DNA of 64,000 bases from Alphaproteobacteria bacterium. GTDB lineage: Bacteria > Pseudomonadota > Alphaproteobacteria > UBA828. This document shows, one piece after another, positions 47,044 through 51,313 of the stretch. Every line of letters begins with the position of its first letter. The first letter of the stretch is position 1. The notes below the pieces were generated by a model. That model did not search any database and was not told where the DNA came from. It worked only from the letters and a program-made list of their open reading frames with translations. The position numbers and the translations under genes were made by a program. The stretch spans positions 2,848,001-2,912,000 of the forward strand of contig OZ243972.1 in assembly GCA_965214705.1 (NCBI GenBank), read 5' to 3'.

Positions 47044-48358
47044 TTGAACGAAGCCGCGGGCCACGAGAGGCGAAGTTGAGCTATGTGGAAAGTGCGCTGA
47101 TGTCAGCGTCAGGCGGCATCCACCGGCAGCAGAGTTGCGCATAAAATCGACGCTCGCGCCGGTCTTTCGGCAGGCATGCGGGCGCACGCTGCGAGGACTG
47201 AGCGGGGTGTGAGCCGAGGGCTGTCAGCCCGGCTCAAGCGGAGACAGGTTCGGTCGTGCGTCGGCGCTTTGGCGCCGTTGCGCGGGGCCGAAGCGAGCGG
47301 GCGTCTCACGGTTTCCCCCTGTGGGTCGGCGGCAGCGCCGGCGGGCCGCGCGTCGAGCGGGGCTCATGGCGGCGGCGGATTTCGCGGACGAGGCGCATGA
47401 CGCCGCCGCAGTGGGGGCAGGCCACGGGCGCGGTGCCGATCTCGGGCTCTTCGTCGGGCTCGGCCCGAGCGCCGTCCACGCTTCCCTCGGGGGCGGCGCA
47501 GCCGAGGGCGCCGAGAGCCTGGCGTGCTCTCTCCAGCGTGCTGGCGCGGCAGCCGTTGGCGAGGATGCCGAAGTAGCGAATGCGGTGCATGCCGTCCGGC
47601 AGGACGTGCCTCAGGAAGCGGCGGATGAACTCGTCGGCGCTCACGGTGGCGATGCCGTAGCGCGGCTTTCTCTGCCCCGGCGCCTTGGGCTTTCGGTGGC
47701 GGAAGGAGACCGTCTCGCCGTCGAAGGAGACGATGCGGCTGTCGGAGATGGCGATCCTGTGCGTGTAGTGCGAGAGGTACCGGAAGACCTGCTCAGGCCC
47801 GCGGAAGGGCCGCTTGGCGTAGACCACCCAGTCCCTGGCCCGGGCGGCGGCAAGCGTGGCGTGGAACTCGCCGGGATTGGCGAGGTGGGCGAGGGTGCCG
47901 TGGAACTCCAGGTCCCCCCGGCCGTGGGCGCGGGCGAGCTCCTCGAGGAAGAGGCGGCGGAACAGGCTGCCGAGGACCTTGACGGGGGCGAGGAAGGTGG
48001 TGCTCCCCGTCTTCCACTCGCCACTGTCTACGTCGAAGCCCGCGTTGGGCACGACCACGTGCAGGTGCGGGTGGAAGCGGAGCTTCTGATCCCAGGTATG
48101 GAGGACCGCGGTGCCGCCGATGCGCATGCCGCCGTGGCGGGGATCGGCGGCGATGGTGCGCAGGGTCTCGGCGACGGCCCGGAAGAGGATGTCGAACACC
48201 ACCCTGCGGTTGCAGAAGGCAATGGCGGCAACCTCCTTGGGCAGGGTGAAGACCACATGGAAGTAGGGCACCGGCAGGATGTCCCCGGCGCGCTCCTCGC
48301 TCCAGAGGTTGGCGGCGAGACCCTGGCAGGTGGGGCAGTGGCGGTTGCGGCAGGAGTT

Positions 48359-48703
48359 CTTATGAGCTCTCTCCGCAAGGCCCGGCTTCATCTACGTCAA
48401 TGGCATTCGCAATCTCTCCACTCGAATCCGCGGCCGATGTCCAGGCAGAACGTCGTTTCCACGCAGCGATCCGCCACGCTGCTCAGCTCTTATCCGGTTC
48501 GGAACTCCGGCGCTTGCCGGCTCCGTGACCCCAATACCGCATCCAAGCGGTGGTGACGTTCCGGGAGGCGGGACCCATCTGTAGAACGGTGCCAAGCGGC
48601 GACCCAACTCTTGCCCGGTCACACGCCTTGCCCGGCATCCTCCGCGGCCGCGTCCGACCACGTCGGAACCTCCTGTATTTTCCCGTTCGTTCGGCCGGTG
48701 CCC
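48359..48703 (-). ncRNA. Putative bridge/seek RNA region of the IS1111-type element
   Basis: Non-coding 3' region with segments matching the target (48580-48589, 48605-48615) and circle junction (48487-48493, 48534-48538), each pair separated by a hairpin; exact RNA ends unknown. Confidence 0.7.
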
Positions 48704-49900
48704 TCAGGAGACGATGGCGCCCTCAGGCACCAGTCCTTGGGTGGCATAGCGCCACAGCGCGATCAGCAGCTTGCGCGCGACCCCCACGATCGCCCGCTTC
48801 CTCGCTCGCCGGTCCCTCCCGCCACCGGCATCCCTGGCGACGTAGGCGTGGAACCACTTCGTGATCGCGCTTTCCGGTTGCAGCTTCAGCCAGCGCCAAG
48901 CCATCTGGATCATGTGCTTCCTGACATGCGAGGGGCCGGCCTTGCTGATGCCAAGATCGTGGTCGACATCTCCGCTCGCCCACGGCACCGACGTCAACCC
49001 GGCCCAGCTGCCCAACTCCCGGCGATTGCGGAAGTCCCGATAGAACACCTCGCCAGCCAGCAGTGTGGCGTCATTGAGGCCGATGCCATGGATGCGCGTA
49101 AGCGCCGCGATCATCGCCGTCCCGTCACGATTGGTCGCGTCCTGGGCTTTCCGGCCAGCCTTCAGCAGGGCCCTCTTCTCGGCCTCGATCATCTCGATAT
49201 GCTCCTCAACCAGGCGAAGCATCCCCACCGCCCTCTCAATCTCTGCCCGCGCACGCGGCGGCAACGGCGCCCCATAGCCCGTCCGCGCGGTCGCGAGGCG
49301 TTCGAGGAAGTCCGGCTTGCGCGGCGCCAGATCGAAGATGCCGTGCAACTGCAAGAGCCCTTTGATCCGGTTGTTGACGCGGGTACGCTCGCTGATCAGC
49401 GTGTCCCTCTCGCGCAGCAGGCGCTTGGCATCCTCCTGGTCCACATCGGGCACGCGCACCCAGGACATGGCCTCCGAATCGCCTTGGTCCCATGCCTTCA
49501 GAGCCCGAACCATCCTCCTCGCGTCGATACGGTCGGTCTTTTTCTTCTTGGCGCGCCGGTTCACCCGCAGGCTCGCCGGATCGTTCATGAAGATATCGAT
49601 CTCCGCGTCACGGCGCTCGATATCGCGGGCAAGCCAGAACCCCTCGTAGCCCGCCTCGTAGGTCAGCATCACCCGAGGACGGGCGCCGAGCTCCCTCGCC
49701 ACCCGTTCCCGCACCGACCCGACGAGATCCAACAGTCCCGCCGTGTCGGCAGCAGCCAGTGTGTGGATGCTGATGCTGCCACCCGAGGCATCCGGGCAAT
49801 GCACGCCAACGATCCACGATTTGAGGCTGATCTCCACCGCGACATAAATCGTGCTACTACTTGCGCCTGTCAGCGCGGTCGTGTCTGGACCATCCGACAT
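48704..49900 (-). CDS. IS110-family transposase/recombinase
   Basis: 'YEAGYEGFW', 'KTDRIDA', 'GIG', 'AGLT..P.ASG', 'GISKAG', 'VARKLL'. Confidence 0.93.
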   Translation of the reverse strand: MSDGPDTTALTGASSSTIYVAVEISLKSWIVGVHCPDASGGSISIHTLAAADTAGLLDLVGSVRERVARELGARPRVMLTYEAGYEGFWLARDIERRDAEIDIFMNDPASLRVNRRAKKKKTDRIDARRMVRALKAWDQGDSEAMSWVRVPDVDQEDAKRLLRERDTLISERTRVNNRIKGLLQLHGIFDLAPRKPDFLERLATARTGYGAPLPPRARAEIERAVGMLRLVEEHIEMIEAEKRALLKAGRKAQDATNRDGTAMIAALTRIHGIGLNDATLLAGEVFYRDFRNRRELGSWAGLTSVPWASGDVDHDLGISKAGPSHVRKHMIQMAWRWLKLQPESAITKWFHAYVARDAGGGRDRRARKRAIVGVARKLLIALWRYATQGLVPEGAIVS

Positions 49901-50203
49901 CCGTCCACTCCGTTGTTGACGATTCCGCTCGGAGAGAAGGTGCTGGCCTTCTCTCCGAGCTTGTCTAACCGCCAGAATCGATTCGGTGCCACCGTGCTCA
50001 TGGTATCTGAAGAGCGGATGCTCGCGCCCGCAGCCCTCGCAGGCGTACATGTGGCCGCCGAGCACGGCGGTGCGGCACGCCTCGATGGCGCCCATGACCT
50101 TGAGCCGGGCGGCGTCGATGCGCCCTTTGTGGCGCTCACGGAAAGCGGCGCCGGCGCGGCGGAAGATCTCCGCCACGCCCGCGCGTTCGGCCTCCACGCG
50201 CCG

Positions 50204-51082
50204 TCAGTTGCGCAACGCTGCGAAGCCTGAGATCGGGTGGTCGAGGCCCTCGAACATCTTGCCGGTGACGCGGGCGTAGTGACGGGTCGTGTTCGCGCTT
50301 CGATGGCCGAGCATGTCCCGGATCACCTCGATATCGCCGCCGCGCTCGAGGAGATGGGTCGCCGCCGAATGGCGCAGGCAATGGAAGGTGTAGCTGCGGT
50401 CGAGCTCGGCAATGTCGCGCGCCCTCCTGAAGGCGGCCTGCAAGGTCTCCGTTGCGATGGGCCTGTCGAGCGAGACGCCGTAGAAGAGCCAGCTCGTCGG
50501 ACGCGGCCAGATGTTCCTGTAGTAGACGCGCAAGTAGTGGATGACGATGTCCGGCAACGGTGCCATTCTCTCGGTGCCGCCTTTGCCGGAGGGGATGTGC
50601 AGCAGCTTCTTCTCCGACAGGATGTCGCCGACCTTGATGGCCAAGGTCTCGGAGATGCGGAGCCCGCCGCCATAGCCGGTGACAATGGCAGCACGGTGGC
50701 GGAGGTCGGGTGTCGCAAGGATGAGGTGCTCGACCTCCTGCTCCGACATGTAGCGCGGCAGCTTGCCGGGCTTCTTGCGGGAGCGCAGGCCGGCGACATG
50801 GTCAGGCCAGCCGAGTGTGTCGATGTAGAGGAAGTTCAGCGCGGCGAAGGAGACGTTGGTCGTGCCCGGACTGAGCCCCTTGTCGATCCGCCCCAGGTAC
50901 CACTGGCGCACCTGCTCGGCGTCGAGCTCGTCCGGCGAGGCGTCGTAGTACCTGGCCAGGTTCTTGATCTCGCAGATGTAGGCCTTGGACGTGCTCGCGG
51001 CCAGATTGGCGATGCGGAGCTGCTCCTCCATGCGCTGGCGAAGAGGGGTGACGGTGTTCGTGTCGCACGCGGTCCCGGTCAT
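50204..51082 (-). CDS. Tyrosine recombinase/integrase associated with the IS91 transposase
   Basis: 'GLRISE', 'GKGG', 'HCLRHS.ATHLL', 'LGH', 'T..Y'; all catalytic residues intact. Confidence 0.93.
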   Translation of the reverse strand: MTGTACDTNTVTPLRQRMEEQLRIANLAASTSKAYICEIKNLARYYDASPDELDAEQVRQWYLGRIDKGLSPGTTNVSFAALNFLYIDTLGWPDHVAGLRSRKKPGKLPRYMSEQEVEHLILATPDLRHRAAIVTGYGGGLRISETLAIKVGDILSEKKLLHIPSGKGGTERMAPLPDIVIHYLRVYYRNIWPRPTSWLFYGVSLDRPIATETLQAAFRRARDIAELDRSYTFHCLRHSAATHLLERGGDIEVIRDMLGHRSANTTRHYARVTGKMFEGLDHPISGFAALRN

Positions 51083-51313
51083 TATCGATCTCCCTGGATC
51101 GCGACGGCGCGCCGCCGGACCGATCCGGCGACGGTCCGTCGCAGGGGTCGATACTAACCACTGGTGATCGGGAGGCTGCTGGGGATCCGCCACCCGACGG
51201 GCGGAGCGCCACTGACGCAACCGGGAAGCGAACGCACAGAACAAACGGCACCCGCGACGCCTCGGAAATGAATGAACTCTACGCCGCTAACTCCGCGTAG
51301 CGGCTTCGTTCAA

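What the first reader, a model, noticed from the sequence alone, without database searches (positions are those of the whole stretch)
48359..48703. IS1111 bridge-RNA guide appears programmed against the conserved YNSC motif of IS91 transposases
Seen: the element sits in CCGCTCTTC|AACTCCTGCC (P-L-F-N-S-C) of the IS91 transposase. Read on the minus strand, its 3' non-coding region has GGCAAGAGTTG (48615-48605), a 10/11 match to the reverse complement of the target. A short hairpin (GGTcGCC-gctt-GGC-ACC) follows, then CCGTTCTACA (48589-48580), an 8/10 match to the left target half. Joined, the guides give CCG TTC TAC AAC TCT TGC = P-F-Y-N-S-C, closer to the IS91 zinc-finger consensus YNSCR than the site actually used. 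Known: IS110/IS1111 recombinases are guided by bridge/seek RNAs with split target guides around a stem. Inference: an RNA-guided IS specialised on another mobile element's most conserved codons, and tolerant of mismatches.
Basis: partly seen in the sequence, partly recalled or inferred. Interest (0 to 1): 0.9.

Follow-up and report, generated by a model that had tools for sequence, protein, structure and literature searches.

The report
RNA-guided IS that targets IS91 transposase
A small jumping gene of the IS110/IS1111 kind carries a guide RNA whose two short guide segments match a zinc-finger stretch of another jumping gene's (IS91) transposase, and it has inserted there many times in this genome; this is a clear natural example of a known mechanism, not a new one.

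Summary

**What is there**
- Window 48359-50008 (minus strand) is a 1650-bp IS110-family element of the IS1111 type.
- Its 345-nt 3' non-coding region folds into a two-loop bridge/seekRNA scaffold conserved in 14 relatives: 96% of cells paired, 13 compensatory pairs.

**Evidence for guiding**
- Across 11 distinct relatives both guide segments covary with the flanks. No permutation of 20000 reaches the observed match.
- Two close relatives carry different guides. They sit in an istB gene and in a DDE transposase gene that match those guides.

**The target in this genome**
- 19 IS91 copies are occupied, all in one orientation. 66 identical sites are empty.
- Occupied copies lie in 11 IS91 haplotypes, so insertion is repeated and site-specific.
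- The IS91 site matches the joined guides at 16 of 19 positions. It is the best match in the 7.9-Mb genome; nothing scores 17 or more.
- The mismatched guide base corresponds to the Tyr codon found in nearly all other IS91 transposases surveyed.

**Not shown:** the RNA itself, its binding to the transposase, and transposition.

**Verdict:** a new member of a known kind, with a new target class. Interest is moderate.

The parts
48359..50008 (-). Whole IS110-family (IS1111-type) element, 1650 bp
   Evidence: 14 full-length copies at 99.9-100% identity. There are also variants at 97, 96, 92 and 86%, three copies split by another IS, and a partial 89% copy in the same genome. The ends were fixed by comparison with 66 empty sites.
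48704..49900 (-). Transposase ORF, 398 aa (DEDD RNA-guided transposase)
   Evidence: Pfam PF01548 (6.3e-08) and PF02371 (8.2e-12). NCBIfam NF033542 'IS110 family RNA-guided transposase' scores 174.4 bits against a cut-off of 140.
49996..50008 (-). Left end: 7-nt terminal extension AGATACC (50008-50002) plus subterminal inverted repeat ATGAGC (50001-49996)
   Evidence: Read. The 7-nt left extension agrees with the IS1111 description in PMC11187229.
48359..48367 (-). Right end: subterminal inverted repeat GCTCAT (48367-48362) plus 3-nt extension AAG (48361-48359)
   Evidence: Read. The 3-nt right extension agrees with the IS1111 description.
48566..48628 (-). Target-binding domain of the RNA: outer stem (48628-48617 with 48575-48566) enclosing both target guides and a small hairpin (48606-48587)
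   Evidence: RNAalifold on 14 relatives. The outer stem is 95-100% paired, with compensatory CG/UA and AU/GC changes.
48605..48616 (-). T guide (GGGCAAGAGTTG), complementary to the top strand of the target C|AACTCCTGCC, with one A.C mismatch
   Evidence: The 8 variable bases covary with the right flank in 11 elements: 72 of 88 matches, against a permuted mean of 35.5 and maximum of 48, 0 of 20000.
48580..48589 (-). B guide (CCGTTCTACA), same sense as the top strand of the target CCGCTCTTC|A, so complementary to the bottom strand; one G.U and one A.A
   Evidence: The 7 bases before the invariant AGA covary with the left flank in 10 elements: 52 of 70 matches, against a permuted mean of 23.5 and maximum of 33, 0 of 20000.
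48446..48563 (-). Donor-binding domain: long-range stem 48563-48555 with 48454-48446, hairpin 48551-48536, GGTATT (48538-48533) complementary to left-end GATACC, GATAAGAG (48494-48487) equal to right-end ATAAG plus AG
   Evidence: The G/A in GATAA[G/A]AG equals the last base of the right end in 13 of 13 aligned relatives whose right end was found (read by eye). The U/G at 48536 goes with left end AGATACC versus AGATCC.
50009..50197 (-). 5' piece of the interrupted IS91-family transposase gene (zinc-binding domain, profile 1-48)
   Evidence: Pfam PF14319, 5.8e-09. An intact copy scores 382.5 bits on NCBIfam NF033538 'IS91 family transposase'.
47306..48358 (-). 3' piece of the interrupted IS91-family transposase gene
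   Evidence: Pfam PF14319 positions 52-90 (3.1e-15) and PF04986 Y2_Tnp (1.8e-54).
50204..51244 (-). Tyrosine recombinase gene directly upstream of the IS91 transposase gene (also so in an intact copy, L097), presumably part of the host IS91 element
   Evidence: Pfam PF00589 and PF13495. The same two-gene layout is seen in an intact copy, L097.

Best explanation
This is an active or recently active IS110-family insertion sequence of the IS1111 type. Its 3' non-coding region encodes a two-loop bridge/seekRNA.

**Target loop**
- The 5' side carries a roughly 11-nt guide that pairs with the top strand of the target just right of the crossover.
- The 3' side carries a roughly 7-10-nt guide that pairs with the bottom strand just left of it.
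- The two guides overlap at the junction.

**Donor loop**
- Two segments fit the element's own left and right ends.

**Action**
- The transposase-RNA complex recombines the circular element with the sequence CCGCTCTTC|AACTCCTGCC. That sequence encodes P-L-F-N-S-C of the zinc finger of an IS91-family transposase present in about 90 copies here.
- Insertion is always in one orientation, makes no duplication and disrupts the IS91 transposase gene.
- Pairing is imperfect: one A.C, one A.A and one G.U. The guides fit the Tyr-codon form of the same IS91 subfamily better.

**Shown here:** the anatomy, the conserved fold, guide-flank and guide-end covariation, repeated orientation-specific insertion into diverged IS91 copies, and that this site is the best match in the genome.

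**Inferred from the family (PMC11187229, PMC11208160):** that the RNA is made, binds the transposase and directs recombination.
For: 1. **Family.** Pfam PF01548 and PF02371. NCBIfam 'IS110 family RNA-guided transposase' above its cut-off.
2. **Layout.** 108-nt left and 345-nt right non-coding regions, and 7-nt and 3-nt terminal extensions, as described for IS1111.
3. **Fold.** 39 consensus pairs in 14 relatives, 13 of them with compensatory changes. 96.3% of cells are paired against 91.0% in shuffles (0 of 500). Slid controls give 35-50%.
4. **Natural reprogramming among close relatives.**
   - The 86% variant has T guide ...AATAGGCGTT. It sits at GTCCAC|AACGCCTATCGC in an IstB gene: 10 contiguous matches, with two empty copies found.
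   - The 85% relative in a Defluviicoccus MAG has ...ACCACCAGTT. It sits at ATCTAC|AACTGGTGGAG in a DDE transposase gene.
5. **Covariation in 11 distinct elements.** T guide 72 of 88 and B guide 52 of 70 matches, with 0 of 20000 permutations as high for each. One more element found later (L087) fits: 7 of 8 and 6 of 7, read by eye.
6. **Insertions.** 19 occupied IS91 sites, all in one orientation. 66 exact empty sites.
7. **Independence.** 17 occupied copies analysed lie in 11 of 30 flank haplotypes, and 4 haplotypes hold both occupied and empty copies. One occupied copy shares only about 10 nt of left flank with IS91. Another lies in a strongly diverged IS91 relative.
8. **Genome-wide census against the 19-nt joined guides.** 70 sites score 16 of 19 and all are IS91 zinc-finger sites. 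None scores 17-19.
9. **Possible excision scars.** Two otherwise empty IS91 sites carry +AG and -3 nt exactly at the crossover point.
Against: - No direct evidence that the RNA exists or has defined ends. The only RNA data are assembled contigs from four runs of one metatranscriptome study. They are 90-95% identical, cover a relative's non-coding region, and show neither strand nor ends nor that it was RNA rather than DNA.
- No Rfam family matches. There are only two chance-level hits, at E 0.74 and 0.78.
- No sigma-70-like promoter or intrinsic terminator was found in the element.
- The subterminal inverted repeat is only 6 bp perfect, shorter than the 7-17 or 11-13 bp quoted for IS1111.
- The ORF is 398 aa, against 330-350 aa quoted for IS1111 transposases.
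- The first two bases right of the crossover are AA in the target but AG in the element's left end. A shared 2-nt core, as in IS621, is therefore not met here.
- The B guide is a weak match in several elements (4 of 7). One copy sits at a site with a very poor B match.
- Some of the 19 copies could have spread by gene conversion between near-identical IS91 copies rather than by transposition.
Confidence: 0.9

Rival explanations
1. The element entered one IS91 copy once. The composite IS91::IS then multiplied as a unit, moved in trans by intact IS91 transposases, or spread by gene conversion between IS91 copies. On this reading the many copies at one site say nothing about targeting.
For: The IS91 copies are nearly identical: 25 of 90 analysed flanks share one haplotype. 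Homologous exchange is therefore possible. 6 occupied copies share that commonest haplotype.
Against: - Occupied copies lie in 11 haplotypes, 4 of them shared with empty copies.
- Three sequence variants of the element (100%, 96%, 92%) all sit at the same site.
- One copy has only about 10 nt of IS91 on its left. That arrangement also exists empty twice.
- One copy is in a diverged IS91 relative, 426 differences in 1200 aligned columns.
- Copies also lie in two istB genes that fit the guides.
Confidence: 0.05
2. The transposase protein reads the target directly, and the two matching segments in the non-coding region are coincidental or serve only as structure.
For: Matches are imperfect (16 of 19). 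The AAC right of the junction is constant in the close group. No RNA has been shown.
Against: - Guide and flank change together in 11 elements, with 0 of 20000 permutations as high for each guide.
- The 86% variant differs from the reference in the guide bases and in its target, while the transposase stays 88% identical.
- Experiments on other IS1111 members show the RNA is required and programmable (PMC11187229, sections 9 and 10 read).
Confidence: 0.03
3. The guides are really set for another primary target, and the Phe-codon IS91 of this genome is only a tolerated secondary site. Candidates are the Tyr-codon IS91 form in another host, or the IstB Walker A codons.
For: - The T guide matches 14 of 14 contiguous bases at the antisense of an IstB Walker A site (GTGKSW), where the 97% variant sits.
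- IS91 genes of a same-genus genome (L091) and a same-class genome (L086) match B at 9 of 10 and T at 10 of 11. Another (L071) matches T at 11 of 11. All are better than the used site.
- The same guides are kept in variants down to 92% identity.
Against: - In this genome nothing matches better than the IS91 site.
- The IstB Walker A site has a poor B match (4 of 8, by eye), one occupied and one empty copy found by BLAST of its flanks.
- 19 copies are in IS91.
- This reading refines the main explanation rather than contradicting it.
Confidence: 0.35

Closest known systems
ISEc11, ISKpn4, ISPst6 and ISPa11 (IS1111 family, seekRNA shown experimentally; PMC11187229)
   Same: Long non-coding region downstream of the transposase gene. 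7-nt and 3-nt terminal extensions. The top-strand guide lies 5' of the bottom-strand guide, and the two overlap in the target. Natural redirection occurs by replacing guide bases while the stems stay (ISEc11 versus ISXne4).
   Different: The target here is the coding sequence of another IS's transposase, rather than a short linear site, attC or REP. The inverted repeat is shorter (6 bp) and the ORF longer (398 aa). The RNA is not shown here.
IS621 and its bridge RNA (IS110 group; PMC11208160)
   Same: DEDD recombinase. An RNA with a target loop and a donor loop, each pairing with both strands. The natural target differs from the guide at one position that is tolerated (an rG:dT pair in IS621; passages read).
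   Different: - In IS621 the RNA lies in the left end and the order of guides is reversed.
- IS621 has a shared CT core in donor and target, whereas here the target has AA and the donor AG.
- There is no sequence-level similarity to solved IS621 chains by phmmer (0 hits).
- Here one of the tolerated positions is a true A.C mismatch and one an A.A mismatch.
[quoted passage not shown]
   Same: IS1111-type elements that use another mobile element as their landing site. I saw titles only, in the reference lists of PMC11208160 and PMC11187229.
   Different: Those targets are terminal inverted repeats. Here the site lies inside the transposase reading frame, at zinc-finger codons, so insertion disrupts the host element's transposase gene.

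Membership tests
IS110 family (DEDD RNA-guided transposases) | Transposase with the DEDD/RuvC-like N-terminal domain and the IS116/IS110/IS902 C-terminal domain | tested here: met
   PF01548 33 bits (cut-off 29) and PF02371 45.8 bits (cut-off 21.3). NF033542 174.4 bits (cut-off 140).
IS110 family | Site-specific insertion without target duplication | tested here: met
   Occupied and empty sites differ by exactly the 1650-bp element.
IS1111 group | Longer non-coding region downstream of the transposase gene | tested here: met
   345 nt downstream against 108 nt upstream. Criterion from PMC11187229.
IS1111 group | Subterminal inverted repeats (7-17 bp, usually 11-13 bp) | tested here: inconclusive
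   ATGAGC/GCTCAT is 6 bp perfect, 7 of 8. The 53-57% identical relatives have 8 bp, TATGAGGC/GCCTCATA.
IS1111 group | Terminal extensions of 7 bp (left) and 3 bp (right) outside the repeats | tested here: met
   AGATACC and AAG. Relatives have 6 and 3. Criterion quoted.
IS1111 group | Transposase of 330-350 aa with the GL-P----S(T)G motif | tested here: not met
   The ORF from the first ATG is 398 aa, and the NCBIfam profile covers residues 33-389. The C-terminal region reads GLTSVPWASG: GL and SG are at the quoted spacing, but the P is two places later (read). No phylogeny was made.
seekRNA / bridge RNA | [quoted passage not shown] | tested here: met
   Covariation.
seekRNA / bridge RNA | Conserved secondary structure with guides in internal loops, plus a second loop matching the element's ends | tested here: met
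   Right-end G/A covariation holds in 13 of 13 (by eye).
seekRNA / bridge RNA | The RNA is expressed, co-purifies with the transposase and is required for movement | not testable with these tools
   Only contigs from RNA libraries of one study, of a 90-95% identical relative, with no ends and no strand.
Rfam families | Match to a curated RNA family | tested here: not met
   Two hits, at E 0.74 and 0.78, both far below their gathering scores and neither in the guide region.

The most novel reading that the evidence does not exclude
This lineage lives as a parasite of other insertion sequences.

**Re-aiming of guides.** Its guides are repeatedly re-aimed at coding motifs of transposition genes. 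Seen here: the IS91 zinc finger, the IstB C-terminus, IstB Walker A, a DDE transposase, and in more distant relatives an IS110 transposase and the end of an rve transposase. Insertion disrupts the host element's gene while the parasite rides with it.

**A possible arms race.** The IS91 of this genome carries Phe (TTC) where nearly all other IS91 transposases surveyed carry Tyr (TAC). The guide still carries TAC. Two empty sites carry small indels exactly at the crossover. This could be the trace of an arms race in which the host IS escapes by changing the target codon, which would explain why only about a fifth of copies are occupied.
Probability: 0.2. Interest if true: 0.7.

Novelty: new member of a known kind. 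Interest (0 to 1): 0.45.

Why it matters
- **A natural series for the targeting rules of IS1111-type RNAs.** One scaffold carries at least three guide sets within 85-100% identical elements, and about ten more in 53-57% relatives. Each is paired with its site. This is ready-made covariation data.
- **A natural measure of mismatch tolerance.** There are 19 insertions at a site with an A.C, an A.A and a G.U. One further insertion has a perfect T match and almost no B match. This bears on off-target prediction for bridge/seek recombinases.
- **Effect on genome dynamics.** An RNA-guided IS can disrupt the transposase gene of about a fifth of the copies of a highly amplified IS91 in one genome.
- **A new target class within this library.** I did not find a description of an IS1111-type element aimed at an IS91 transposase gene in four full-text searches, judged from titles and abstract starts. 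Two candidate papers were checked by passages and meant IS911 (84, 85).

Tried and rejected
**In-frame fusion idea.**
- In the window the IS91 start, the left end and the transposase form one 497-aa open frame. The 86% variant has a 748-aa open frame.
- In the Defluviicoccus relative the host gene's frame does not run into the transposase frame.
- A conserved translational fusion is therefore not supported.

**'All relatives target IS genes'.**
- This is true for the close group: IS91, two IstB sites and a DDE transposase.
- It is also true for one paralogue family (in an IS110 transposase gene) and for L020/L027 (at the end of an rve gene).
- For 8 other sites Pfam found nothing beside the element (L017, L018, L026, L034, L037, L087, L050, L014). 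L019 lies beside an ABC permease.
- The A3 site has only a sub-threshold DDE hit, E 0.0083.
- The L018/L026/L019 flanks look palindromic, like a REP-type target (by eye).
- The pattern is an enrichment, not a rule.

**Searches that gave little.**
- Rfam: no family.
- PDB by sequence: 0 hits.
- Promoter and terminator scan: 0 and 0.
- Plasmid collection: 275 records, all below 60% identity and named only 'IS110 family transposase'.
- The search for related loci on genome contigs: 3 loci, of which one was useful.

**RNA libraries.** Contigs only, from a relative and from one study. They are no evidence of expression.

**Single-sequence fold.** The fold of 205 nt is only mildly better than shuffles, z -2.06. 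The comparative fold carries the argument.

**Rows left out of the permutation test.**
- L026 and B2, which have the same guides as L018 and B0.
- The 97% variant's IstB site, which has the same guides as the reference.
- The partial 89% copy: 5 of 8 for T by eye, with no left flank.
- L019 and L027, whose guides duplicate or nearly duplicate those of L018 and L020.
- L014, whose right end was not found.
- L087, which was found later.
- L021 has no left flank, so it is absent from the B test.
- For the 86% variant I used the empty-site sequence. The occupied copy lacks one A at its right junction.

**Correction.** My note says 12 haplotypes. The count is 11.

Full report
**What is at the site**

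Window 48359-50008, read on the minus strand, is a 1650-bp insertion sequence.
- It has a 108-nt left non-coding end.
- Its 398-aa ORF (48704-49900) carries the two domains of IS110-family transposases (Pfam PF01548 and PF02371). It scores above the cut-off of NCBIfam NF033542, 'IS110 family RNA-guided transposase'.

The element splits an IS91-family transposase gene inside its zinc-binding domain. Pfam PF14319 positions 1-48 lie on one side and 52-90 on the other. An intact copy scores 382.5 bits on NCBIfam 'IS91 family transposase'. A tyrosine recombinase gene lies directly upstream of the IS91 transposase gene, in the window and in an intact copy.

**Check of the observation**
RNA-sense GGCAAGAGTTG is at 48615-48605 and CCGTTCTACA at 48589-48580. 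A short hairpin lies between them.
- The joined empty site CATCCGCTCTTCAACTCCTGCCGCAACC occurs 66 times exactly in the same 7.9-Mb genome. The junction CCGCTCTTC|AACTCCTGCC is therefore exact and no duplication is made.
- The first segment is complementary to the top strand (10 of 11). The second is identical to the top strand (8 of 10), so it is complementary to the bottom strand.
- A combined score of 18 of 21 is reached by 0 of 3000 dinucleotide-preserving shuffles of the non-coding region. The mean is 13.7 and the maximum 17.

**Copies in the genome**

BLAST finds 14 full copies at 99.9-100% identity. It also finds full copies at 97, 96, 92 and 86%, three copies split by another IS, and a partial copy at 89%.
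- Nineteen copies sit at the IS91 site, all in the same orientation.
- They are not one amplified composite. I analysed 17 occupied copies; two 'occupied' records were dropped, namely the IstB site and a copy followed by a partial tandem. The 92% variant was not caught by the end pattern. The 17 lie in 11 of 30 haplotypes of the 1200 nt around the site, and four haplotypes hold both occupied and empty copies.
- One occupied copy has only about 10 nt of IS91 on its left, because another repeat abuts there. That arrangement also exists empty twice.
- One copy lies in a strongly diverged IS91 relative.
- The 100%, 96% and 92% variants all use the same site.

**The RNA scaffold**

I aligned 237 nt of the non-coding region from 14 elements. 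These were the reference, three variants from the same genome, a Defluviicoccus MAG (85% nucleotide and 88% protein identity), a Kiloniellales MAG, and eight relatives at 53-57% protein identity from this and other genomes of the order.

RNAalifold gives 39 pairs, 13 with compensatory changes. On that structure:
- 96.3% of cells pair, against 91.0% in shuffles (0 of 500).
- 38 cells show double changes, against 14.3.
- Sliding the partners by 1-3 columns drops pairing to 35-50%.

There are two domains.
- **Target domain (window 48628-48566).** An outer stem encloses an internal loop.
- **Donor domain (48563-48446).** A nine-pair long-range stem encloses a hairpin and two segments that fit the element's own ends.
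  - GGTATT (48538-48533) is complementary to left-end GATACC. Relatives with left end AGATCC have GGGAT here.
  - GATAAGAG (48494-48487) equals the right-end ATAAG plus AG. The G/A at its sixth base equals the last base of the right end in 13 of 13 aligned relatives whose right end was found. I read this by eye.

This is the target-loop plus donor-loop plan of bridge RNAs (PMC11208160, passages read). The order of guides is the one reported for IS1111 seekRNAs (PMC11187229, sections 4, 6, 9, 10 and 13 read).

**Guides follow targets**

Within the close group the stems stay and the loop bases change together with the flanks.
- **Reference.** The reverse complement of the T guide is CCCAACTCTTGCCCGG, against the flank C|AACTCCTGCCG.
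- **86% variant.** CCCAACGCCTATTCGG, against the empty site GTCCAC|AACGCCTATCGC. This lies in a gene that Pfam calls IstB_IS21 (2.9e-61). Two empty copies are present.
- **MAG relative.** CCCAACTGGTGGTCGG, against ATCTAC|AACTGGTGGAG, in a gene with a DDE_Tnp_1 domain.
- **B guide.** It changes in step: TCTACA, TCCATA and TCTATA, against TCTTCA, TCCACA and TCTACA.

Over 11 distinct elements:
- The eight variable T bases match the right flank at 72 of 88 positions. The permuted mean is 35.5 and the maximum 48 (0 of 20000).
- The seven B bases match the left flank at 52 of 70 positions. The permuted mean is 23.5 and the maximum 33 (0 of 20000).

The rows left out are listed under Tried and rejected. 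These elements are related, so the permutation counts overstate independence, but the guide sequences themselves differ. An element found afterwards (L087) fits as well.

**How good is the IS91 site as a target?**

I joined the two guides by script from window coordinates into a 19-nt ideal site.
- In the whole genome, on both strands, 70 places match it at 16 of 19. All are IS91 zinc-finger sites (68 of the used sequence, 2 of a one-base variant). None matches at 17-19.
- The three imperfect positions are a G.U, an A.A two bases from the crossover, and an A.C in the T guide.
- The A.A position is the second base of the codon before Asn. This genome's amplified IS91 has TTC (Phe). The guide has TAC.
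- In 30 IS91 loci from the class, the residue is Tyr in 27 of 28 regex hits. The 28th is a spurious hit with a stop.
- A same-genus genome has ...ccgctctac|aactcgtgcc, with B 9 of 10 and T 10 of 11. Another same-genus genome has Phe.

**An off-site copy**

The 97% variant has the same guides. It sits at GGAGATCC|AACTCTTGCCCG, which is the antisense of the Walker A codons of a second IstB gene (Pfam 4.9e-65). There the T guide matches 14 contiguous bases and the B guide almost nothing. The empty site exists elsewhere in the genome. This suggests that the T guide carries most of the specificity.

**The crossover**
- In the 53-57% relatives the right flank begins with AG, like the left end AGATCC.
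- In the reference group the flank begins with AA, while the left end begins with AG. All 19 copies read ...TTC-AG-ATACC on the left and ...ATAAG-AA-CTCC on the right. That is the outcome expected if the top strands decide the product.
- A preprint on another IS110 element reports that top-strand integration predominates (10.1101/2025.10.25.684509, passage read).
- Two otherwise empty IS91 sites carry +AG (CTCTTCAGAACTCC) and a 3-nt deletion exactly at this point. I read them as possible excision scars. This is inference.

**What is not shown**

No call shows the RNA, its ends, or its use.
- Four runs of one metatranscriptome study hold contigs 90-95% identical that cover a relative's non-coding region. 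Contigs cannot show strand, ends, or that the template was RNA.
- Rfam has no matching family.
- No promoter or terminator consensus was found.

The mechanism therefore rests on family membership plus covariation.

**Comparison with what is known, and novelty**

The element works like the IS1111 seekRNA elements and like IS621. Membership in the IS110 family is met.

| IS1111-group feature | Result |
|---|---|
| Position of the non-coding region | met |
| Terminal extensions | met |
| Guide order | met |
| Inverted repeat length | short, 6 bp |
| ORF length | longer than the quoted range |

- Using another mobile element as the landing site has precedent: IS1383 in the inverted repeats of IS1384, and IS4321/IS5075 in Tn21 repeats. 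I saw titles only, in reference lists.
- A tolerated natural guide-target mismatch has precedent in IS621.
- What is new here is the target class: codons inside an IS91 transposase gene, and in close relatives IstB and DDE transposase genes.
- Also new is the size of the natural data set in one genome.

I rate it a new member of a known kind, of moderate interest.

The boldest reading that the data allow is a lineage specialised on transposition genes, in an arms race with its host IS. It is supported only by the target list of the close group and by the Phe/Tyr difference. The wider relatives do not all sit in IS genes.

Noticed in passing
G000 C1 near 3005599 and C2 near 15332 (outside the window): Two otherwise empty IS91 sites carry small changes exactly at the insertion point. 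One has +AG (CGCTCTTCAGAACTCCTG) and one has lost 3 nt (CGCTCTTCTCCTG). They may be excision scars. Both destroy the reading frame or the target.
   Followed up: partly
G000 C1:1873053-1874866; also locus L034, around 2724 and 3123: A full copy of the element is followed directly by a second copy of its last 165 nt (element positions 1486-1650), joined at an AG. In another genome (L034) the whole RNA module occurs twice, 399 nt apart, with identical guides. This recalls the modular circles reported for ISPpu9 (abstract of PMC12288879 seen).
   Followed up: no
G000 C2:623309-623587 (locus L054): An orphan 280-nt copy of the RNA module and right end (89% identical, starting at element position 1371). 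It has its own guide bases, lies next to a fragment of a different IS110-family transposase gene, and has no transposase gene of its own kind.
   Followed up: partly
G000 C2:518994-523403, C3:1713791-1718200, C3:687404-691813: Three copies of the element are themselves split by another insertion sequence of about 2.76 kb. That IS has ends GTAAGCGGTA... and an 8-bp duplication, and it sits at three different positions.
   Followed up: no
window 49929-49958 (minus strand), in the left end: A 12-bp inverted repeat (TCGGAGAGAAGG ... CCTTCTCTCCGA) lies between the left terminus and the transposase start. It is kept in all close variants and in the MAG relative. Its function is unknown.
   Followed up: no
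whole genome G000: The IS91-family element is extremely abundant: 66 exact empty sites plus 19 occupied ones, about 90 copies in 7.9 Mb. At least two further IS91 subfamilies are present, with 11-12 and 3 copies, and the element does not occupy them.
   Followed up: partly
G000 C3:483684-485333 (locus L052): The 86% variant's right junction lacks one A compared with the two empty IstB sites (CATAAG|ACGCC against CAC|AACGCC). This is a 1-nt loss at the crossover.
   Followed up: partly
window 48704-50197 (minus strand): The IS91 start codon, the element's left end and its transposase form one 497-aa open frame. The same frame relation is not kept in the MAG relative, so it is probably chance in GC-rich DNA.
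   Followed up: yes
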